From the NCBI GenBank assembly GCA_963721695.1, contig CAVRKU010000004.1, positions 10,927-74,926 of the forward strand: a DNA stretch of 64,000 bases, written 5' to 3'. The notes under the pieces were generated by a model, which searched no databases, was not told the origin of the DNA, and saw only the letters and a program-made list of their open reading frames with translations. The translations under genes were made by a program, and so were the position numbers. This stretch comes from an uncultured Microthrixaceae bacterium (GTDB lineage Bacteria; Actinomycetota; Acidimicrobiia; Acidimicrobiales; VFJN01). Shown here one piece after another: positions 1,576 through 31,304 of this stretch. The number at the start of each line of letters is the position of its first letter. Positions within the stretch are counted from its first letter, which is position 1.

Positions 1576-1576
<1 letters not shown>
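809..1576 (+). CDS. rplV: 50S ribosomal protein L22 with a long acidic, His-rich C-terminal extension
   Basis: L22 core [23 protein letters not shown]...[16 protein letters not shown], followed by a tail of about 120 aa ([21 protein letters not shown]-rich). The tail frame is uncertain. Confidence 0.85.
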
Positions 1577-2479
<903 letters not shown>

Positions 2480-2484
2480 CTGAC

Positions 2485-2901
2485 ATGTTGATGCCCAAGA
2501 AGGTCAAGCACCGCAAGCAGCACCGCGGGCGCACGAAGGGTCAGAGCAAGGGTGGCACCGAGGTCACCTTCGGCGAGTACGGCATCCAGGCCCTCGAGCC
2601 CGGGTGGATCACCGCTCGCCAGATCGAGGCCGCCCGAATCGCCATGACCCGCAAGACCCGGCGTGGCGGCAAGGTCTGGATCACCGTCTTCCCCGACAAG
2701 CCCGTCACCGAGAAGCCGGCCGAGACCCGCATGGGCTCCGGCAAGGGCAACCCGGAGCGCTGGGTCGCGGTCGTGAAGCCGGGCCGCATCCTGTTCGAGC
2801 TCTCGTACCCCGATCAGGAGCTGGCCAAGGTCGCCATCGACCGGGCCATCCAGAAGCTGCCGATCAAGGCTCGCTTCGTCACCCGCGAGGAGGCGCTCTG
2901 A
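2485..2901 (+). CDS. rplP: 50S ribosomal protein L16
   Basis: [16 protein letters not shown]...[26 protein letters not shown]. Confidence 0.95.
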
Positions 2902-5828: not shown

Positions 5829-6194
5829 ATGACCGTCAGCGCACAGCACAAGCGGGAAGCCCGCCTCCGGCGTCACCGCCGGGTGCGGAAGAAGGTGGAG
5901 GGGTCGGCCGACCGGCCGCGCCTCGCCGTGTTCCGCTCGAACAAGCACATCTCCGCCCAGGTGATCGACGACCGCTCCGGTCGCACGCTCGCCGCCGCCT
6001 CCACCACGGAGCCCGATCTCCGCGGGGCCGGCACGGGCAACAAGGACGCCGCCACCAAGGTCGGCCAGCTCGTCGCCGAGCGGGCCAAGGCCGCCGGCGT
6101 CACCAAGGTCGTCTTCGATCGAGGCGGCAACCTCTACCACGGGCGGGTCGCGGCAGTCGCCGACGCCGCTCGCGAAGCAGGACTGGAGCTCTAA
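5829..6194 (+). CDS. rplR: 50S ribosomal protein L18
   Basis: [20 protein letters not shown]...[24 protein letters not shown]. Confidence 0.95.
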
Positions 6195-6817
6195 TGGCCA
6201 ACGGATCAGGTCCCCCCCGCCGCGACCGCGAGCGCAACGACCGCGAGAACCCGCGGCAGTCGACCGACACGACGCTGCGTGAGTCGCGCGTGATCAACAT
6301 CAACCGCGTGGCCAAGGTCGTGAAGGGCGGTCGTCGCTTCAGCTTCACCGCCCTCGTCGTCATCGGCGACGGCAACGGCCGCGTCGGCCTCGGCTACGGC
6401 AAGGCCAAGGAGGTGCCCCTCGCCATCCAGAAGGGCACCGAGGAGGCTCGCAAGAACCTCTTCCAGGTCCCCCTGGCCGGCTCCACCGTCACCCACACGA
6501 TCATCGGTCGGATGGGGGCGGGCCGTGTCCTCCTCAAGCCCGCCGCCCCCGGTACCGGCGTGATCGCCGGTGGCGCCGCCCGGGCCATCCTCGAGGAGGC
6601 CGGGGTGCACGACGTGCTGTGCAAGTCGCTCGGCTCGTCGAACCACATCAACGTGGCCCGCGCCACGATCAACGGCCTCAAGTCGCTGAAGCGCCCGGAC
6701 GAGATCGCCCGCCTGCGGGGGCTCGACGCCGACGACTTCGTGCCCAAGGGCATGCTCGCCGCCTACCGCGAGAGCGAGCGCGGCCCACAGGCGCACGTGC
6801 CCGAAGAGGTCGCGTGA
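6194..6817 (+). CDS. rpsE: 30S ribosomal protein S5
   Basis: [39 protein letters not shown]. Confidence 0.95.
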
Positions 6818-9588: not shown

Positions 9589-10337
9589 GTGAAGCGGTCT
9601 GCCTCTGATCTGGCGAAGATGCGGCGGGCGGGGCGGGTCGTGGCCGAGATGCACTCCTGCATCCGCGAGGCGATCCGCCCGGGGGTGACCACCGCCGAGC
9701 TGGATCGGATCGGACGGGACGTGATCGAGCGACGCGGCGCTCGCTCCAACTTCCTCGGCTACGGGCACCCGCCGTTCTCGGGGGTGATCTGCGCCTCCCC
9801 GAACGACGTCATCGTGCACGGGATCCCGGGTCCGGTGCGGCTGGAGGACGGCGACATCGTCTCGATCGACTGCGGGGCGATCATCGAGGGCTGGCACGGC
9901 GACGCCGCCTTCACGGCCGGGGTGGGGGAGATCGACCCGGAGGATGCCCGGCTCATCGAGGTGACCGAGGCATCGCTGGCCGCCGGCATCGCGGCGATGG
10001 TCCCCGGCGGACGTCTGTCCGACATCGGCGCCGCCGTGCAGCGGCGTGGCCGAGGCGGCCGGGTTCTCGGTCGTGCGGGAGTACACGGGCCACGGCATCG
10101 GGATGGCCATGCACGAGCAGCCCGACGTCCCCAACTGGGGCAAGCCCGGCAAGGGCCGCCGGCTGGGCCCGGGTCAGACCTACGCCGTCGAGCCCATGGT
10201 CTGCGCCGGCCAGCCCGACGACCCGGCTGCTCGAGGACCAGTGGACCGTCGTCACCGCCGACGGCCGGCGGGCCGCCCACACCGAGCACACCATCGCCAT
10301 CACCGACGACGGCCCCGAGATCCTCACCCTGCCCTGA
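9589..10337 (+). CDS. map: Methionine aminopeptidase type I (two apparent indels, near 10043 and 10218)
   Basis: [31 protein letters not shown] and [17 protein letters not shown] are spread over three frames. Confidence 0.9.
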
Positions 10338-10425
10338 GCCACGCAAAGCCACCCGTTGGCTGCGTTGCCGGACTATGGTGCTCAGACCCGCAGGATCCCT
10401 GTGGCCCCGGCGTACGGACGTCGAG

Positions 10426-10454
10426 TTGGACCTCCGCCGTGCCCGCGCTAGCAT
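10426..10454 (+). promoter_or_regulatory. Candidate housekeeping-sigma promoter for infA-rpmJ-rpsM
   Basis: TTGGAC, 17-nt spacer, TAGCAT, about 90 nt upstream of infA in the 209-nt map-infA gap. Confidence 0.4.
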
Positions 10455-10546
10455 CACCCTTCGGCCCTGGGCCCAGTCCGTCGTCTGCACGCGCCCCGTG
10501 CGGCGGCCGGTCGAGCCCGCCATCTCAGCAATCCAGGAGCCCCACT

Positions 10547-10771
10547 CTGGCCAAGCCCAAGGAAGACGCGATCGTGCTGGAAGGCACGGTGGTCGAGCCC
10601 CTCCCGAACGCGATGTTCCGGGTCGAGCTCGAGAACGGCCACAAGGTGTTGGCCCACATCTCCGGGAAGATGCGGATGCACTACATCCGGATCCTGCCCG
10701 GCGATCGCGTCCAGGTGGAGCTCACCCCGTACGACCTCACCCGGGGTCGGATCACCTACCGGTACAAGTGA
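10547..10771 (+). CDS. infA: Translation initiation factor IF-1 (the aligned start codon is CTG)
   Basis: (L)[54 protein letters not shown]...[14 protein letters not shown] lies 7 nt upstream. Confidence 0.9.
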
Positions 10772-10785
10772 ACGAGAGCGCCCCG

Positions 10786-10899
10786 ATGAAGGTCCGCCCG
10801 AGCGTCAAGAAGATCTGTGAGAAGTGCAAGGTGATCCGCCGCCACGGGCGCGTCCAGGTCATCTGCACCAACCCCCGGCACAAGCAGCGCCAGGGCTAG
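10786..10899 (+). CDS. rpmJ: 50S ribosomal protein L36 (zinc form)
   Basis: [37 protein letters not shown]. Confidence 0.95.
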
Positions 10900-12368: not shown

Positions 12369-13308
12369 ATGCTCGTCATCCAGCGCCCCACCGTCGAGGC
12401 GATCGGCGAGGCTCAGGGCAATCGCCAGACCTTTGCCGTCAGCCCGCTGGAGCCCGGCTTCGGCCACACGCTCGGCAACTCCCTGCGTCGCACGCTTCTG
12501 TCGTCGATCCCCGGCGCCGCCATCACGCAGCTCCGCTTCGACGACGCCCTCCACGAGTTCGACACCATCGCCGGGGTCACCGAGGACGTCACCGACATCA
12601 TCCTCAACCTCAAGGACCTCGTGCTGGTGTGCCACAGCGAGGAGCCGGTCACCCTGCGCCTCGACGTCAAGGGTGCGGCCGACATCACCGCCGCCGACAT
12701 CTCGACCACCAGCGACGTCGACGATCCTGAACCCCGGTCTGCACATCGCCACGCTCAACAAGTCGGCTCGTCTCGCCATCGACATCACCGTGTCGAAGGG
12801 CCGGGGCTACGTGTCCGCCGACCGCAACAAGGGCAGCGCCACGATCGGCGTCATCCCGGTCGACTCGATCTTCTCGCCGGTGCGCCGCGTCGCCTTCCAG
12901 ATCGAGCCCACCCGCGTCGAGCAGTCCACCGCCTACGACCGCCTCGTGCTCGACATCGAGACCGACGGGTCGATCAGCCCCCGCGAGGCGCTGGCGTCGG
13001 CTGGCGACACCCTCCGCTCGCTCGTCGGCCTGGTGGCCGAGATGAGCGACGACCCGCAGGGCCTCGAGCTCGGCGAGGTGGCCACCACCACCACCGGCTC
13101 GCCCGACCTCGACCTCCCCATCGAAGACCTCGACCTCTCCGAGCGGCCGCGCAACTGCCTCAAGCGGGCGCAGGTCAACTCGATCGGCGAGCTCCTCCTG
13201 AAGACCGAGGACGACCTGCTCGCCATCACGAACTTCGGCCAGAAGTCGCTCGACGAGGTCATCCAGAAGCTCGACGAGCGTGGCCTGCAGCTGCGCACGA
13301 AGGACTAG
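12369..13308 (+). CDS. rpoA: DNA-directed RNA polymerase alpha subunit (apparent indel near 12720)
   Basis: [28 protein letters not shown] in one frame. The rest, including the [24 protein letters not shown], is in another frame. Confidence 0.92.
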
Positions 13309-13316
13309 GACCCGCC

Positions 13317-13670
13317 ATGCCTGCCACCCCGAAGAAGGGACGTCGCTTCGGCGGCAGCTCCCAGCACCAGCGGCTGATGATGGCCAACCTCGTCGCGTCG
13401 CTCGTCGCCGCCGAGGGCATCGTCACGACCGAGGCGAAGGCCAAGGCGCTCCGACCCGTCGCCGAGAAGGTCATCACGAAGGCCAAGAAGGGCGGCCTGC
13501 ACAACCACCGCCAGGTCGTGTCCTACCTCGGCGACAAGGAGATGGCCCACAAGCTCTTCACCGAGATCGGGCCCCGCTATGCCGACCGCAACGGCGGCTA
13601 CACCCGCATCCTCAAGCTCGGCAACCGCCAGGGTGACAACGCTCCCATGGCCCGGATCGAACTGGTTTGA
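13317..13670 (+). CDS. rplQ: 50S ribosomal protein L17
   Basis: [25 protein letters not shown]...[25 protein letters not shown]. Confidence 0.95.
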
Positions 13671-26714: not shown

Positions 26715-28372
<1,658 letters not shown>

Positions 28373-28396
28373 CCCAGGCCCACGCCTGCAGATGTC

Positions 28397-28429
28397 CGGA
28401 AGGGCCGCCCCATGAGGGCGGCCCTTCCG
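28397..28429. terminator. 13-bp GC-rich hairpin between the convergent groEL and rsr genes (candidate bidirectional terminator)
   Basis: CGGAAGGGCCGCC-CCATGAG-GGCGGCCCTTCCG. There is no clear U tract. Confidence 0.55.
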
Positions 28430-28442
28430 CGTATCCGCGCGA

Positions 28443-30036
28443 TCAGAACGGCCACTGGGCGTTGCGGCCGCCCTCCAGCACCTCCATGGCCTTGAAGGTG
28501 GCATCGGTGAAGCCGCCCAGCGTGTACCGGCCCCGCTCGCCGGCCGGCAGCGCCGACGGCCGGTAGCCGCCCAGGTCGAAGGTGTAGATCAGCGGTACGT
28601 GCTCGAGCCGGACCTGACCGGCGTCGTGCTGCTGGTCGTCGGTGAAGAGCACCACCCGTCGATGGCGATCAGGGTCGTACCACTGCTTGATGGCCGTGTG
28701 GCCGAACGTGGCGTGACCGACCGAGCCCACCGACCGCACGATCTGCTCCACCTCGCGCGAGCACCGATGCGCCGCGCCGGCGCCGCATCCGCGCGTTCGT
28801 CTGGCCGTAGACCACGACATCGACGGCCGCGGCACGGTGTGCCGTCGCCATCGGCCATGACCGCGGCGATCTCGACCCGCTGCAGCGTGGATCGACCGGA
28901 CACCGCCGCCTGCATCGAGCCCGAGGTGTCGATGACGACGAGGGTGCCATCGAGGGCAGGGATGTTGGCCACGGTGTAGCTCGAGCGTCCGGCCGAGCGC
29001 CCGCTTCCAGGCGTCCGACGGCGCGTGCTTGTACGCCGCCCACACCTGGTACGGGAACAGGCGCGCCTTGGCCACCTCGTCGGCGTCGGTGATCTTCGCG
29101 ATGACCGCATCGATCGACGGCTCCGAGATGCCGGCCTGGTCGAAGTTGCGCAGGTTGCGGACCAGCGCCATCACGCCCATCGACGGGATGACGGCCTCCC
29201 ACGCCTCCGCGTCCATGCCACCCGGCAGCCAGCCCGACAGCCGCTCCCAGGAGACGCCCGCGTCGGCCAGGGCCGCCGGGCCCCGGTCGCGCAGGAGCTG
29301 GCGACGGTCACCCTCGGGCACGGTGGCCAGCGTCGGCCGCCGCGGCGAGGACCGGCAGCAGCGCGGGATCGGCCACGGCATCGTCGTGGTGGCGACGGTC
29401 GAGCAGCCACTTGAAGAGCGCCGACTGGCGCTCGTCGCGGGGCGACGGGTGGGTGAGCTCGACCACGTCGGCCATGCGGATCTGGCGCGACAGCCCGTCG
29501 TACCGCAGCACCGCACGCTCCGTGTAGAGGCGTCGGACGGCGTCAGCGATGCCGCGCTTGACTGGCATCGGGCACGTTCCGACCGTGCGTGGTCAGCCAG
29601 TAGCCGAGCAGCTCGGCCGGCTCGTCGGGCCGCTGGAGGGCCCGGGCGACCACCGACCGACCACCGACCCCTCCGGCCGCCACGTACTCGGCCGCCATCA
29701 CGACGGCGGCCGAACGCATGAGCAGGGTCGAGCGCAGGTACTGGATGAGGCCGACCTGGCCGGCCTCGAGGTCACGACCGGCGAGGAACGCTGGGTTCGC
29801 GGCGGCCACCTCGTGGACGAGCTGCGACGAAGCGGGCGTCGCGGTCCGCGGCGCGCTCGTAGAAGGTGTCCTCGCCGACCATGTTCGTGGCCGCGAGCAG
29901 GAACAGCTCCGACTCGGGATCGCGCGCGAAGGCCTCGCCGCCCTCGTGGGTGCGGAGGCGATCGCGCACGCGTGCGGATCGGTGCGGTCAGGTTGGGGCG
30001 GAGCGGGCGCCGCTTGGTGCCCGAGAACTTGGCCAT
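28443..30036 (-). CDS. rsr: Ro60-related protein Rsr (TROVE plus vWA domains); about 7-8 apparent frameshifts
   Basis: Fragments across three frames: [11 protein letters not shown]; [18 protein letters not shown]; [12 protein letters not shown]; [22 protein letters not shown]; [13 protein letters not shown]; the vWA MIDAS motif [11 protein letters not shown]; and the C-terminus LFTDDQQHD...[13 protein letters not shown] lies 5 nt upstream of the ATG. Confidence 0.85.
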
Positions 30037-30082
30037 GACGCCCTCCTCTCTTATCTCGGTTGATGGGGTGGTTGGGAGTGGG

Positions 30083-30182
30083 TCCGGTCAGGGAACACGG
30101 TGGACGGGCGGTGCCGAGTCGAACGGCAGGCCCGAAGGTCTCTTCGCCAGAGAAGGAAGCCCGTCCTTCGCAGCTGACCGGA
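30083..30182 (-). ncRNA. Y-RNA-like RNA 2 (paralog of Y1; carries a T-arm but no D-arm or acceptor hairpin)
   Basis: 9-bp terminal stem (30083-30091 with 30174-30182). Asymmetric loop CUGCGAA / ACCGUGUUCC. 8-bp helix GGACGGGC/GCCCGUCC (30159-30166 with 30102-30109). UUCCUUCUCU tract. T-arm UGCCG-UUCGACU-CGGCA. Confidence 0.6.
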
Positions 30183-30188
30183 AGGGGA

Positions 30189-30326
30189 AGTTCGGCCTGG
30201 GAACCAAGGCGGCAGGGGTGTGCATGTGCTCTACCGATTGAGCTACGTCCACCGAGTGGACGACGGGACTCGAACCCGCAACCCCATGATCAGAAGGAAC
30301 CCCTGCCTGCGCAGCAGGCCGATCTA
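30189..30326 (-). ncRNA. YrlA-like Y RNA 1 with a circularly permuted tRNA-like domain
   Basis: 8-bp terminal stem (30192-30199 with 30315-30322). Loop CUGCGCA / GCCUUGGUUCC. 8-bp helix GGCAGGGG/CCCCUGCC. Then UUCCUUCUGAU, T-arm GCGGG-UUCGAGU-CCCGU, closed acceptor-like hairpin CGUCCAC-UCG-GUGGACG, and D-arm GCUC-AAUCGGUA-GAGC. Lies about 150 nt upstream of rsr on the same strand. Confidence 0.75.
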
Positions 30327-30344
30327 ACGAGCAGAGACATCGGA

Positions 30345-30419
30345 TGGCTGCGAGGCCAGGGATCGAACCCGGTTCTCCTGGTTCAGAGCCAGGCGTGGTG
30401 CCAGTTCCACCACCTCGCA
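30345..30419 (-). tRNA. tRNA-Gln (anticodon CUG), CCA encoded
   Basis: Acceptor UGCGAGG/CCUCGCA (U1-A72), G73, D-arm GUGG-AACUGGCA-CCAC, anticodon loop CUCUGAA, T-arm CCGGG-UUCGAUC-CCUGG. Confidence 0.85.
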
Positions 30420-30423
30420 TCGT

Positions 30424-30498
30424 TGGTCTGGACGGGAGGACTCGAACCTCCAACCCCCGGCTCCCGAAGCCGGTGCGCTCCCGTTGCGCCACGTCCAG
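30424..30498 (-). tRNA. tRNA-Pro (anticodon CGG), CCA encoded
   Basis: Acceptor CUGGACG/CGUCCAG (C1-G72), A73, anticodon loop UUCGGGA, T-arm GGAGG-UUCGAGU-CCUCC. Confidence 0.85.
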
Positions 30499-30501
30499 TG
30501 C

Positions 30502-30579
30502 TGGTACTGACGGTCGGAGTCGAACCCGACACTGACGGCGGTCTGAGCGCCGTGCCTCTTCCAGTTGGGCTACGTCAGC
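30502..30579 (-). tRNA. tRNA with Leu anticodon CAG but a class-I (5-nt variable loop) architecture, CCA encoded
   Basis: Acceptor GCUGACG/CGUCAGU (G1-U72), A73, anticodon arm CGGCG-CUCAGAC-CGCCG. The T-loop is 8 nt (GUCGG-GUUCGACU-CCGAC) or contains a 1-nt indel. Confidence 0.6.
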
Positions 30580-30583
30580 GATG

Positions 30584-30658
30584 TGGTGGACCGGGCGGGA
30601 TTCGAACCCGCAACCTTCTCCGTGCAAGGGAGCTGCGCTTCCAGTTGCGCCACGGCCC
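30584..30658 (-). tRNA. tRNA-Ala (anticodon UGC), CCA encoded; irregular acceptor register
   Basis: Anticodon loop CUUGCAC, D-arm GCGC-AACUGGAA-GCGC, T-arm GCGGG-UUCGAAU-CCCGC, A73. G1-C72, G2-C71 and G3-U70 form only if the 5' end is at 30658, which leaves one linker nt short. Confidence 0.65.
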
Positions 30659-30659
30659 G

Positions 30660-30730
30660 TGGTCGCGGGAGCGGGGATCGAACCCGCCGGGCGGGGCTTA
30701 TGAGGCCTCGCTGATCCCAGATCTCCCGCA
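30660..30730 (-). tRNA. tRNA with anticodon CAU (Met, or Ile2/initiator undetermined) and a truncated D-arm, CCA encoded
   Basis: Anticodon loop CUCAUAA, T-arm GCGGG-UUCGAUC-CCCGC, acceptor UGCGGGA/UCCCGCG (U1-G72). Only 13 nt (GAUCUGGGAUCAG) lie between the acceptor and anticodon stems. Confidence 0.55.
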
Positions 30731-30733
30731 GTG

Positions 30734-30810
30734 TGGAGTGACCGACCGGACTCGAACCGGCTTCCTCCGGGGCCACGTCCCGGCGTGTCGTCCACTTCAA
30801 CCTCGGCCAC
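30734..30810 (-). tRNA. tRNA-His-like (anticodon GUG), CCA encoded, with C33
   Basis: Acceptor GUGGCCG, anticodon arm CCGGG-ACGUGGC-CCCGG, T-arm GCCGG-UUCGAGU-CCGGU. A8 replaces U8, position 73 is U, and no G-1 is encoded. Confidence 0.55.
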
Positions 30811-30812
30811 AG

Positions 30813-30884
30813 TCGACGAGGAGGGATTCGAACCCCCGGCATCCTCCGTGTGAGAGAGGCGGTCTGCCACTGACCTACTCGTCG
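30813..30884 (-). tRNA. tRNA-Val (anticodon CAC), no encoded CCA
   Basis: Acceptor CGACGAG/CUCGUCG, U8 A9, D-arm GGUC-AGUGGCA-GACC, anticodon arm CCUCU-CUCACAC-GGAGG, T-arm GGGGG-UUCGAAU-CCCUC. Confidence 0.8.
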
Positions 30885-30892
30885 TGGTGTCG

Positions 30893-30966
30893 TAGGGCGT
30901 CGTGGAGTCGAACCACGTCGATCCCGCGATATCAGCGCGGTGCCTTCACCGTCTGGCTCACGCCCG
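30893..30966 (-). tRNA. tRNA-Ile-like (anticodon GAU), no adjacent CCA
   Basis: Anticodon arm CCGCG-CUGAUAU-CGCGG and T-arm CGUGG-UUCGACU-CCACG are both perfect. Deviations: 6-bp acceptor plus a C1/U72 mismatch, G8, a 3-bp D stem and a 6-nt variable loop. Confidence 0.55.
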
Positions 30967-31107
30967 CTGCGTGTCGTGGTCCCGGGCGTGCTCGAACCTC
31001 CTCCTGCCGGGTTTCGATCGGCCGCTCCACCGTCAGAGCTTCAGCGAGGTTCCGCCTGCGGGGTCGGCTGCGGGGAGAACCCGCTGCGTCTCGGATCGAG
31101 TTGGCGT
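30967..31107 (-). other. Irregular tRNA-derived segment that does not fold into a canonical cloverleaf
   Basis: On the minus-strand RNA: D-arm-like GCUC-UGACGGUG-GAGC; arm GCCGA-UCGAAAC-CCGGC (GAA triplet); UUCGAGC T-loop-like motif without a pairing partner; GCGGG-UUCUC-CCCGC (the neighbouring T-arm minus 2 nt). A possible 12-bp helix pairs 30975-30986 with 31113-31124. Confidence 0.35.
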
Positions 31108-31174
31108 CCTCGCCCGGGACCACGCGACCAGGGGCGGTCGGAAGGAAGGAACCCTGGTCTCGCATCGGACGAAG
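31108..31174 (-). ncRNA. Y-RNA-like module 3 (minimal paralog)
   Basis: Outer stem CUUCGUCC/GGGCGAGG (two G-U pairs), loop AUGCGAGA / GCGUGGUCCC, and 8-bp helix GACCAGGG/CCCUGGUC capped by UUCCUUCCUUCCGACCGC. The architecture and motifs match Y1 and Y2. Confidence 0.45.
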
Positions 31175-31177
31175 CAG

Positions 31178-31250
31178 AGCCGGTTGCGGGGATCGAACCC
31201 GCTGCCTCTCGGGTGGGGCCGAGCGTCCTTGCCTTCAGGACCTCACCGGC
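31178..31250 (-). tRNA. tRNA-Gly-like (probable anticodon CCC) with a 6-nt anticodon loop, no CCA
   Basis: Acceptor GCCGGUG (6 bp plus one mismatch), U73, D-arm GUCC-UGAAGGCAA-GGAC, anticodon arm CUCGG-CCCCAC-CCGAG, T-arm GCGGG-UUCGAUC-CCCGC. Confidence 0.5.
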
Positions 31251-31255
31251 GTGGT

Positions 31256-31291
31256 GGTGGTCCCGCCCGGCCTGTTCCGGGCGGGACCACC
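31256..31291 (-). other. 15-bp perfect GC-rich hairpin between the rtcB stop and the first downstream tRNA
   Basis: GGUGGUCCCGCCCGG-AACAGG-CCGGGCGGGACCACC. It lies 14 nt after the rtcB stop and 5 nt before the tRNA 5' end, with no U tract. Confidence 0.6.
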
Positions 31292-31304
31292 TCATCGGCT
31301 GCGC

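What the first reader, a model, noticed from the sequence alone, without database searches (positions are those of the whole stretch)
30502..31250. About half of the array tRNAs have non-canonical structures
The deviations I observed are: (1) A CAG (Leu) anticodon on a class-I body with a 5-nt variable loop and an 8-nt T-loop (30502-30579). (2) A CAU tRNA with only 13 nt in place of the D-arm (30660-30730). (3) A His-like tRNA with C33, A8, U73 and no G-1 (30734-30810). (4) An Ile-like tRNA with G8 and a C1/U72 mismatch (30893-30966). (5) A Gly-like tRNA with a 6-nt anticodon loop CCCCAC (31178-31250). (6) In the other sub-array, a second unrelated CCG tRNA (32738-32813), a Lys-like tRNA with A8 and a 7-nt variable loop (32815-32892), and a Trp-like tRNA with a reduced D-arm (33066-33135). 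The background indel rate is about 1 per kb, which can explain at most one or two of these. Altered anticodon loops have been proposed to let phage tRNAs escape anticodon nucleases, so these could be nuclease-resistant variants, regulatory tRNA mimics or decaying pseudogenes.
Basis: seen in the sequence. Interest (0 to 1): 0.7.

Follow-up and report, generated by a model that had tools for sequence, protein, structure and literature searches.

The report
Deviant tRNA array in RNA-repair operon
The odd tRNAs are mostly real: they belong to a conserved spare set of unusual tRNA genes built around an RNA-repair ligase (RtcB) and a Ro60/Y-RNA pair on the chromosome of an Acidimicrobiales bacterium, but several of the oddities seen here are one-base defects found only in this sequence.

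Summary
All eight listed deviations are present at the stated coordinates on the minus strand. The window is an Acidimicrobiales-like chromosome, not a phage. The module order is: conserved leader, 7 tRNAs, rtcB, 11 tRNA-like genes, YrlA-like RNA, Ro60 gene.

Comparison with 83 related genome loci and 25 metagenome contigs splits the deviations in two.

**Private to this window, so probably assembly errors or fresh lesions:**
- the extra G in the Leu T arm (0 of 39 orthologues)
- the 7th nucleotide of the Lys variable loop
- the 6-nt anticodon loop
- the Ile C1xU72 mismatch
- two unlisted indels in Ile and Ala

**Conserved across about 12-25 species, some with compensatory changes:**
- a class-I Leu(CAG) body
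- a 4-bp, 3-4-nt-loop D hairpin in an initiator-like CAU tRNA
- a reduced D arm in Trp
- a His-like tRNA with a 3-nt connector and no G-1
- A8 or G8
- a 6-nt Lys variable loop

Across the arrays, position 33 is C in 64 of 248 tRNAs. Anticodons are the most conserved part and their loop neighbours the least. The "Gly-like" gene has a Thr-family body.

Most likely this is a long accessory tRNA array coupled to RNA repair. A backup pool that escapes nucleases is inferred, not shown.

The parts
33136..33365 (-). Conserved ~230-nt leader directly upstream of the first array gene. It contains a 50-51-codon ORF (33209-33364) and several conserved hairpins.
   Evidence: Alignable in at least 18 array loci. 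The frame is kept by 3-nt indels, but there is no third-position excess of variation and no Pfam or NCBIfam hit. RNAalifold finds hairpins with weak covariation.
33066..33135 (-). Trp-like tRNA (CCA) with a reduced D arm (GCCA-GUGG-UGGC). Only 1 nt separates the acceptor stem from the D stem.
   Evidence: RF00005 22.2 bits. Identical in L001. Conserved in 24 orthologues, 91.5% of cells paired.
32894..32976 (-). tRNA-Tyr (GUA), class II, canonical.
32815..32892 (-). Lys-like tRNA (CUU). A8 and a 6-nt variable region are conserved; the 7th nucleotide is private to the window.
32738..32813 (-). tRNA-Arg (CCG) with a canonical fold. It belongs to the Arg(ACG) family; the anticodon switch to CCG is shared with L001.
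   Evidence: 65.6 bits; alignment
32659..32736 (-). tRNA-Arg (CCG), canonical, Arg(CCG) family.
32582..32657 (-). tRNA-Glu (CUC), canonical here. Many orthologues carry C32 C33.
32508..32580 (-). tRNA-Asn (GUU).
31305..32471 (-). rtcB (RNA 3'-phosphate ligase). In the window it is broken by about 5 frameshifting single-base indels.
   Evidence: Frame pieces. 85-93% identical to 386-aa Acidimicrobiales RtcB proteins. Indels located against L001.
31256..31291 (-). Perfect 15-bp hairpin between the rtcB stop codon and the next tRNA gene.
   Evidence: I6; identical in L001
31178..31250 (-). A8 with U14 is conserved.
   Evidence: 35.6 bits. Orthologue loops are CCCGUAC, CUCGUAA or UUAGUAC.
31060..31125 (-). 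Decayed Thr-like paralogue with a truncated T loop.
30974..31048 (-). Decayed Phe(GAA)-family gene. The 5' acceptor strand is disrupted by about 5 extra nucleotides.
   Evidence: 90-96% identical to Phe(GAA) genes of 13 loci over 69 nt. Not called by ARAGORN or Rfam in the window.
30892..30966 (-). Ile-like tRNA (GAU). G8 and a 3-bp D stem are conserved. The C1xU72 mismatch and the 6th variable-loop nucleotide are private.
30812..30884 (-). tRNA-Val (CAC), canonical.
   Evidence: 64.1 bits
30734..30810 (-). His-like tRNA (GUG) with A8, a 3-nt connector after the D stem, and no encoded G-1. Position 33 is C or U among orthologues. U73 is shared with L003 and L105.
   Evidence: 32.3 bits
30660..30731 (-). 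Initiator-like CAU tRNA. It has a 4-bp D hairpin with a 3-4-nt loop, no nucleotides 8/9, a 7-bp anticodon helix, and a 1:72 pair that is never Watson-Crick.
30584..30658 (-). tRNA-Ala (UGC) with G3.U70 kept. One nucleotide is missing at the acceptor/D junction, private to the window.
30502..30579 (-). Class-I tRNA with the Leu anticodon CAG and A73. The extra G in the T arm is private to the window.
30424..30498 (-). tRNA-Pro (CGG), canonical.
   Evidence: 64.9 bits
30345..30419 (-). tRNA-Gln (CUG), canonical.
   Evidence: 57.1 bits
30203..30309 (-). YrlA-like (Y RNA-like) RNA with T-arm, stem and D-arm modules.
   Evidence: RF02553 42.2 bits, full length, below the 69-bit cut-off. The same element lies at the same place in L001, L046, L058, L037 and L039.
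28446..30036 (-). Ro60/Rsr (TROVE domain) gene. In the window it is split into 8 frame pieces.
   Evidence: Pfam TROVE; tblastn pieces.

Best explanation
The array is one member of a conserved accessory tRNA-gene module on Acidimicrobiales chromosomes. Its order is: leader, tRNA block, rtcB, tRNA block, YrlA-like Y RNA, Ro60.

Across species the module encodes a second, structurally divergent tRNA set of about 20 families that together cover all 20 amino acids, mostly with C34 or G34 anticodons. Its departures from the cloverleaf are family-specific, inherited and selected. They are:
- a class-I Leu
- mini D hairpins in the CAU and Trp tRNAs
- a His-like tRNA without G-1
- A8 or G8
- frequent C33

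On top of this, the window copy carries its own single-base lesions. These are most likely consensus errors in a low-quality stretch that also breaks rtcB and the Ro60 gene. Two genes in the window are truly decayed.

Inferred mechanism (not shown): the block is transcribed with rtcB and Ro60/YrlA as part of an RNA-damage or translational-stress response. It supplies tRNAs whose altered anticodon-loop flanks and cores make them poor substrates for tRNA-targeting nucleases. RtcB re-ligates cleaved tRNAs, and Ro60/Y RNA handles misfolded ones.
For: **Chromosomal context.** The window carries ribosomal-protein genes, secY, rpoA, glmS, alr, tsaE and tsaD, and Dus, Maf, CBS and TROVE next to the array. 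RtcB is 85-93% identical to Acidimicrobiales MAG proteins. L001 has the same synteny at 97.5-98.4% nucleotide identity.

**Module conservation.** 21 of 83 related loci carry 5 or more tRNA genes around rtcB, in one conserved gene order. TROVE follows rtcB in 12 of 15 array loci against 3 of 52 others (Fisher p 3e-8). YrlA-like hits lie at the same position in 6 loci.

**Conserved deviations.** See the alignments.
- CAU family: 95.3% of cells paired and 7 pairs with compensatory changes. The D hairpin is 100% paired with 2 of 4 pairs covarying. The 1:72 pair is never Watson-Crick.
- Trp family: 91.5% of cells paired.
- Every Leu-anticodon tRNA in the arrays is class-I sized, while Ser and Tyr keep long arms. 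The one non-array Leu(GAG), in L081, is class II.

**Array-wide statistics.** C33 occurs in 64 of 248 tRNAs, all in an unambiguous register, and the 8th nucleotide is not U in 76 of 248. Entropy is 0.54 bits at positions 32/33/37/38, 0.30 for the body and 0.21 for the anticodon.

**Private lesions.**
- The extra G in Leu is absent from 14 genome orthologues and 25 metagenome contigs.
- The Ile, Lys and Ala indels are absent from all orthologues.
- rtcB, TROVE and a flanking gene carry many single-base indels, although their substitutions are mostly synonymous.

**Precedent.** Long tRNA arrays co-regulated with rtcB under translational stress (PMC8421152); the rsr-yrlA-rtcB operon (PMC4201824, PMC7790460); anticodon-loop escape by phage tRNAs (PMC10264068).
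Against: - There is no expression, processing, charging or nuclease data.
- No promoter or terminator was predicted.
- The housekeeping tRNAs and tRNases of these organisms were not available, so 'escape' cannot be tied to any cleavage site.
- C33, non-U8 and reduced D arms could reflect relaxed decoding constraint rather than selection.
- The array is absent from about three quarters of related species and is being lost piecemeal in the window's own lineage: a 750-bp deletion in L001, and two pseudogenes plus broken rtcB and Ro60 genes in the window. It is therefore dispensable.
- The clustering of indels at 27.3-33.0 kb is not fully explained. Some window 'insertions' relative to L001 are in fact ancestral bases (the CCA of Gln).
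Confidence: 0.6

Rival explanations
1. The array RNAs are tRNA mimics that do not decode. They would act as decoys or sponges for tRNA-cleaving toxins, as ligands or tethers for Ro60 (extra Y-like RNAs), or as signals for the repair system.
For: - The arrays co-occur tightly with Ro60 and a YrlA-like RNA.
- Near-universal decoding and core features are lost: U33 in 29% of genes, U8 in 31%, and the D loop in the CAU and Trp tRNAs.
- The sponge idea was raised for the Anabaena array (PMC8421152).
- YrlA shows that tRNA-like modules serve Ro60 (PMC4201824).
Against: - Anticodons are the most conserved positions (0.21 bits) and the families cover all 20 amino acids.
- Identity elements are kept: G3.U70 in Ala, A73 in Leu, and class-II arms in Ser and Tyr.
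- Many genes encode CCA.
- Eight of the window's genes are fully canonical, with 50-66 bits.
- 23 of 26 Anabaena array tRNAs are charged in vivo (PMC8421152).
Confidence: 0.2
2. Nothing functional: the deviations are a mix of assembly errors and neutral decay of a horizontally acquired, silent tRNA island.
For: - The window has private indels in 5 tRNA genes, about 5 frameshifts in rtcB and at least 7 in the Ro60 gene.
- It holds two clear pseudogenes.
- L001 has lost about 750 bp of the array.
- Distribution is patchy: 21 of 83 loci.
Against: - The principal deviations are identical or compensated in about 12-25 species whose RtcB differs by up to 30%. These include short-read assemblies (SPAdes and MEGAHIT contigs).
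- Gene order is conserved.
- Neutral decay would not keep anticodons and helices while changing only the loop flanks.
Confidence: 0.1
3. A phage or prophage tRNA array that serves phage translation (codon supplementation or defence evasion).
For: - Similar layouts exist in phages. Streptomyces phage BRock has a Ro-like gene inside a 29-tRNA array next to RNA ligase genes.
- IMG/VR contig L085 has rtcB inside a 21-tRNA array, including a 75-nt class-I-sized Leu(UAA).
- The module sits in two different chromosomal contexts (L001 against L003), so it moves.
Against: - No phage genes lie in the flanks. The neighbours are Dus, Maf, CBS, GroES and TsaD.
- The window has no near match in 50,697 phage records.
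- The array's Leu and CAU motifs are absent from IMG/VR.
- The closest viral RtcB proteins are only 53-61% identical.
Confidence: 0.1

Closest known systems
Long accessory tRNA gene arrays ('L-arrays' or tRNA array units), e.g. the Anabaena PCC 7120 trn operon (PMC8421152; survey in PMC4758250)
   Same: - Dense, same-strand arrays with 1-4-nt spacers that add a supernumerary, near-complete tRNA set.
- Patchy distribution with presence/absence differences between close relatives.
- Pseudogenes are included.
- rtcB is found in the neighbourhood in cyanobacteria and is co-induced with the array.
   Different: - Here rtcB is inside the array, and a YrlA-like RNA plus Ro60 are fixed partners.
- The window has 18 genes, not 20 or more.
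- The lineage is Acidimicrobiia.
- Conserved structural deviations (class-I Leu, mini D arms, 26% C33) were not mentioned in the passages of PMC8421152 and PMC4758250 that I searched.
- Regulation is unknown.
The rsr-yrlBA-rtcBA RNA repair operon of Salmonella Typhimurium and the bacterial Ro60/YrlA pairs (PMC4201824, PMC7790460)
   Same: Ro60 (TROVE), a tRNA-like Y RNA next to it, and RtcB lie in one same-strand cluster.
   Different: - No RtcA or RtcR is visible within about 6 kb.
- The YrlA match is below Rfam's cut-off.
- About 18-20 tRNA genes are interleaved, which is not part of the described operon.
Phage tRNA arrays with RNA-repair genes, and the anticodon-loop escape hypothesis (PMC10264068, PMC11555353; Streptomyces phage BRock; IMG/VR L085)
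   Same: - Arrays are interleaved with a Ro-like protein or RtcB/RNA ligase.
- Anticodon-loop flanks differ while anticodons are kept.
- A class-I-sized Leu tRNA occurs in L085.
   Different: - This array is chromosomal, sits between core genes and is conserved across a bacterial order.
- No host-versus-array comparison or known nuclease is available here.
tRNAs with reduced D arms (tRNA-Sec with a 6-bp, 4-nt-loop D arm; mitochondrial D-arm-poor tRNAs) and bacterial initiator tRNA. This comparison rests on my own knowledge.
   Same: - The CAU gene has a small D loop, and its best Rfam match is tRNA-Sec.
- It shares three features with initiator tRNA: a 1:72 pair that is not Watson-Crick, A11:U24 in the D stem, and G-C pairs at the base of the anticodon stem.
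   Different: - Its acceptor and T arms are of normal length, so it is not Sec-like.
- The 1:72 pair is U.G, UxC or AxC rather than CxA.
- Nucleotides 8 and 9 are absent.
- Formylation and initiation are untested.

Membership tests
Canonical bacterial tRNA (RF00005 cloverleaf) | Score at or above the Rfam gathering cut-off (29 bits). | tested here: met
   14 of the 16 non-decayed genes score 32-66 bits. The exceptions are the Trp-like gene (22.2 bits) and the CAU gene (best match tRNA-Sec, 24.4 bits). The two pseudogenes give no hit.
Canonical bacterial tRNA (RF00005 cloverleaf) | U8, a 4-bp D stem with a 7-11-nt loop, a 7-nt anticodon loop with U33, a 4-5-nt or long variable region, and a 7-nt T loop. 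| tested here: not met
   Met by 8 genes: Tyr, both Arg, Glu, Asn, Val, Pro and Gln. Not met by 10: Trp, Lys, the Thr-family gene, two pseudogenes, Ile, His, CAU, Ala and Leu.
Bacterial tRNA-Leu | Class-II body with a long variable arm. | tested here: not met
   The variable region is 5 nt in the window and in all 14 orthologues. Every Leu-anticodon gene in the arrays is 73-80 nt. A73 and a 3-bp D stem are present. Charging is not testable here.
Bacterial tRNA-His | Encoded G-1 opposite C73. | tested here: not met
   Position -1 is U in the window and in most orthologues. The discriminator is C in most orthologues and U in the window, L003 and L105.
Long tRNA arrays (tRNA array unit, PMC4758250) | At least 20 tRNA genes at 2 or more per kb. 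| tested here: inconclusive
   Density is met: 18 tRNA-like genes in 2.8 kb, rtcB included. The count is 18 in the window (16 plus 2 pseudogenes). ARAGORN finds up to 19 in relatives, and more by BLAST.
Long tRNA arrays (L-arrays, PMC8421152) | Supernumerary set with patchy, HGT-like distribution. | tested here: met
   21 of 83 related loci carry arrays. Content differs among the window, L001 and L105 at 95-98% identity. The module sits in two different genomic contexts.
Long tRNA arrays (L-arrays, PMC8421152) | Induced by translational stress, with tRNAs aminoacylated. | not testable with these tools
   Requires RNA work in a cultured carrier.
Rsr-YrlA-RtcB RNA repair operon | A TROVE/Ro60 gene with a YrlA RNA within 4 kb. 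| tested here: inconclusive
   TROVE is present. The YrlA model matches over its full length at 42 bits against a 69-bit cut-off. The same element lies at the same place in 6 loci.
Rsr-YrlA-RtcB RNA repair operon | rtcB together with rtcA and the sigma-54 activator RtcR. | tested here: not met
   rtcB is present. No RtcA or RtcR domain appears among the called genes within 6 kb in L001 or L003.
Phage tRNAs that evade anticodon nucleases (PMC10264068) | Phage-encoded. | tested here: not met
   The flanks are chromosomal and there are no phage matches.
Phage tRNAs that evade anticodon nucleases (PMC10264068) | Anticodon-loop changes at nuclease recognition or cleavage sites relative to host tRNAs. 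| not testable with these tools
   Host housekeeping tRNAs and tRNases were not available. Only the excess variability at positions 32/33/37/38 was measured.

The most novel reading that the evidence does not exclude
Acidimicrobiales carry a dedicated tRNA-damage survival unit that puts three functions in one operon:
- replacement, through about 20 deliberately non-canonical, nuclease-insensitive tRNAs, including a class-I tRNA-Leu and a D-loop-less initiator-like tRNA that still function in translation
- repair, through RtcB
- quality control, through Ro60 and a Y RNA

The unit would be controlled by a conserved leader (a peptide or a structured RNA) that senses translational stress.
Probability: 0.25. 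Interest if true: 0.8.

Novelty: new variant of a known kind. Interest (0 to 1): 0.6.

Why it matters
If the conserved deviant tRNAs are charged and used, bacterial translation tolerates more than the textbook rules allow: a Leu tRNA without the long arm, C33 in a quarter of a tRNA set, and near-absent D loops. The fixed linkage of a spare tRNA set to RtcB and Ro60/Y RNA would give a direct genetic handle on two open questions: what long tRNA arrays are for, and what bacterial Ro60/Y RNA and RtcB act on.

Practically, the case shows that tRNA 'anomalies' in error-prone assemblies must be checked against orthologues before they are interpreted. Five to six of the anomalies here vanish on comparison.

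Tried and rejected
- **Phage origin.** Near and distant BLAST against 50,697 phage records matched only the rtcB part, at 64-68% nucleotide identity. Exact array motifs are absent from IMG/VR. The closest viral RtcB proteins are 53-61% identical.
- **Gly identity of 31178-31250.** Rejected. The body aligns with the Thr(CGU/AGU) family, not with the array's Gly(CCC) genes.
- **All deviations are errors.** Rejected by the orthologue alignments and covariation.
- **All window/L001 indels are window errors.** Rejected in part. The CCA of Gln and some spacer nucleotides are ancestral and were lost in L001 and L105.
- **Real pseudogenisation of rtcB and Ro60.** Considered less likely than technical error. 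The indels are insertion-biased, they also hit a flanking gene whose changes are purely synonymous, and substitutions in rtcB and TROVE favour third positions. It is not excluded.
- **Single-sequence MFE z-scores.** Uninformative, from -0.6 to -2.3.
- **Promoter and terminator scan.** Found nothing usable.
- **Leader ORF.** No Pfam or NCBIfam family and no coding-like variation pattern. Whether it is a peptide or an RNA was left open.
- **Weak Rfam hit to Chloroflexi-1** (24.6 bits, opposite strand). Treated as chance.
Full report
**What the window is.** The tRNA genes lie on the minus strand in two blocks, 33135-32508 and 31250-30345, separated by an rtcB gene. The window is a bacterial chromosome, not a phage.
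- Kilobases 1-26 carry rplP, secY, map, rpmJ, rpsM, rpoA, rplQ, glmS, alr, tsaE and tsaD.
- The array is flanked by Maf, Dus and a CBS-domain gene on one side and a TROVE (Ro60) gene on the other.
- The reconstructed RtcB is 85-93% identical to hundreds of 386-aa proteins from Acidimicrobiales metagenome-assembled genomes.
- Phage databases match only the rtcB part, at 64-68% nucleotide identity.

**Checking the observation.** By hand, all eight described features are present at the stated coordinates; details are in the observation check.

Three corrections apply.
- The 'Gly-like' gene has a Thr-family body.
- The 'second CCG tRNA' is a structurally canonical Arg(ACG)-family gene whose anticodon switched to CCG, a change shared with L001.

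Ten of 18 tRNA-like genes deviate.

**Relatives.**
- L001 is an independent ENA assembly, 97.5-98.4% identical in nucleotides, with the same synteny.
- L105 is a JGI contig, about 95% identical over Val to YrlA.
- One scan of GTDB species representatives with RtcB returned 80 Acidimicrobiia loci.
- A motif scan of metagenomes returned 25 more.

Twenty-one loci carry 5 or more tRNA genes around rtcB in one conserved order:
- before rtcB: [Trp] Tyr Lys Asp Arg(ACG) Arg(CCG) Thr/Ser Glu Asn Cys Gly
- after rtcB: Gly Thr Phe Val Ile Val His Met Ala Leu Pro Gln

Together these cover all 20 amino acids.

**Private versus conserved.** Per-family alignments divide the deviations.

Private to the window:
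- the extra G in the Leu T arm, absent from 14 genome orthologues and all 25 metagenome matches
- the sixth variable-loop nucleotide of Ile
- the seventh variable-loop nucleotide of Lys
- the missing nucleotide in Ala
- the CCCCAC loop, where the nearest relatives have UUAGUAC and others have CCCGUAC or CUCGUAA
- the Ile C1xU72 mismatch, where orthologues have G.U, A-U or C-G

Against L001 the window has 38 indel differences in about 10 kb.
- Thirty of them are extra bases in the window, mostly single and not in homopolymers.
- They cluster at 27.3-33.0 kb. There they break rtcB about 5 times and the Ro60 gene at least 7 times, and also hit a flanking gene.
- Dus, Maf, CBS, NUDIX and GroES (3.3 kb) have none.

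Three facts make a low-quality consensus stretch more likely than real decay. Substitutions in these genes are synonymous or third-position biased. The indels are insertion-biased, against the usual bacterial deletion bias (my own knowledge). Essential genes elsewhere in the window also look frame-broken. I cannot exclude very recent pseudogenisation. Some 'insertions' are in fact ancestral, such as the CCA of Gln.

Conserved:
- the class-I Leu(CAG) body, nearly invariant in 14 orthologues
- the mini D hairpin of the CAU tRNA, in 16 orthologues
- the reduced D arm of Trp, in 24 orthologues and identical in L001
- the His-like architecture (A8, 3-nt connector, no G-1), in 14 orthologues
- G8 in Ile, in 12 orthologues
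- A8 and a 6-nt variable loop in Lys, in about 17 orthologues
- A8 with U14 in the Thr family

Covariation counts support real structure.
- CAU family: 95.3% of cells paired and 7 pairs with double changes. The D hairpin is 100% paired with 2 of 4 pairs covarying. No shuffle (0 of 500) reached the observed values for four of the five measures, and 3 of 500 did for the fifth. Slid controls gave 44-60% pairing.
- Trp family: 91.5% paired.

The CAU tRNA never has a Watson-Crick 1:72 pair. It keeps A11:U24 and G-C pairs at the base of the anticodon stem. These are initiator-like traits; that comparison is an inference from my own knowledge.

**Array-wide pattern.** Among 248 ARAGORN tRNAs in array loci, position 33 is C in 64, G in 7 and A in 1. 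All 64 C33 cases sit in a 7-nt loop closed by at least 4 of 5 stem pairs. The 8th nucleotide is not U in 76. Many of these loci are short-read assemblies.

Position 33 flips between C and U within families. In the His-like family it is C in the window but U in L105 and L003.

Mean entropy is 0.54 bits at positions 32/33/37/38, against 0.30 for the rest of the body and 0.21 for the anticodon (Mann-Whitney p 2e-6). The sequences are related, so this p-value is indicative only.

Every Leu-anticodon gene in the arrays is class-I sized, while Ser and Tyr keep long arms. A non-array Leu(GAG), in L081, is class II.

**Context.**
- TROVE follows rtcB in 12 of 15 array loci with enough downstream sequence, against 3 of 52 loci without arrays.
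- A full-length but sub-threshold YrlA match (31-42 bits) lies between the last tRNA and TROVE in six loci.
- A conserved ~230-nt leader precedes the first gene.
- The module sits in different chromosomal contexts in L001 and L003.
- Its tRNA content differs among the near-identical window, L001 and L105.

**Mechanism.**

Shown:
- This is a conserved, structured and selectively maintained second tRNA set, physically coupled to RtcB, a Y-like RNA and Ro60.
- Its anticodons are conserved while the loop flanks and core positions vary.

Inferred:
- The genes are co-transcribed and processed.
- Under RNA damage or translational stress the set acts as a replacement pool that is less sensitive to tRNA-targeting nucleases.
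- RtcB re-ligates cleaved tRNAs, and Ro60/Y RNA handles defective ones.

The inference rests on analogy with three systems:
- the Anabaena array, which is induced with rtcB and has 23 of 26 tRNAs charged (PMC8421152)
- the Salmonella rsr-yrlA-rtcB operon (PMC4201824, PMC7790460)
- anticodon-loop escape by phage tRNAs (PMC10264068)

The main rival is that they are decoys or Ro60 ligands rather than decoders.

**Comparison and novelty.** This is a variant of the long accessory tRNA array. It also resembles phage arrays that embed Ro-like or RtcB genes. One viral contig even has a class-I-sized Leu tRNA.

I did not find the following described in the papers searched:
- the fixed order tRNA block, rtcB, tRNA block, YrlA, Ro60 on Acidimicrobiales chromosomes
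- the family-level conservation of a class-I Leu, mini D arms and pervasive C33

The literature search was limited, so prior description cannot be excluded.

**Limits.** There are no expression or charging data. Housekeeping tRNAs of the same genomes were not available. The orthologues are not phylogenetically independent. The cause of the indel cluster is unresolved.

Noticed in passing
window 33136-33365 (minus strand); ORF 33209-33364: A conserved ~230-nt leader lies directly upstream of the first array gene in at least 18 loci. It holds a 50-51-codon ORF (MARILIAEPTLQGQSLSSVGAFACLP...) whose frame, start and stop are kept. There is no third-position excess of variation and no Pfam or NCBIfam family. 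Several hairpins are conserved, including CGCGCAC-N8-GTGCGCG just before the Trp-like gene. It could be a leader peptide or a structured regulatory RNA.
   Followed up: partly
window 27300-33000: Single-base indels relative to the 98%-identical L001 cluster here, at about 5 per kb and mostly as extra bases in the window. They break rtcB and the Ro60 gene. Neighbouring Dus, Maf, CBS, NUDIX and GroES have none. The cause is unresolved: either a local drop in assembly quality or very recent decay.
   Followed up: partly
window 1576-2901, 9589-10899, 12369-13670: Essential genes appear fused or frame-broken: rpsC KH domain with rplP, a truncated map with rpmJ, and the rpoA N-terminal part with rplQ in single ORFs. 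This suggests indel errors elsewhere in the window too.
   Followed up: no
window 31256-31291: A perfect 15-bp hairpin (GGTGGTCCCGCCCGG / CCGGGCGGGACCACC) lies between the rtcB stop codon and the next tRNA gene. It is identical in L001 and shortened in L105. It may be a processing or termination element.
   Followed up: no
window 30106-30124 (minus strand): A T-arm-like GTTCGACTCGGCAC lies between the YrlA-like RNA and the Ro60 start codon. It may be a second Y-like RNA, by analogy with YrlB.
   Followed up: no
L085 (IMGVR_UViG_3300020233_000057) 6163-6237: A viral contig carries rtcB (58% identical) inside an array of 21 tRNA genes. One is a 75-nt class-I-shaped tRNA with the Leu anticodon UAA, next to two class-II Leu tRNAs.
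   Followed up: partly
window 31178-31250 versus L001 7216-7292 and L105 ~250-320: Three close relatives share a near-identical Thr-family body but have three different anticodon loops: CCCCAC, UUAGUAC, and CCCGUAC in more distant loci. Each also has a different single mismatch in the acceptor stem. The loop of this gene turns over very fast.
   Followed up: partly
L030 2087-2159: A Val(CAC)-family body carries the anticodon CAA and is called Leu by ARAGORN. Like Arg ACG to CCG in the window, it shows that anticodon switching on a conserved body recurs in these arrays.
   Followed up: no
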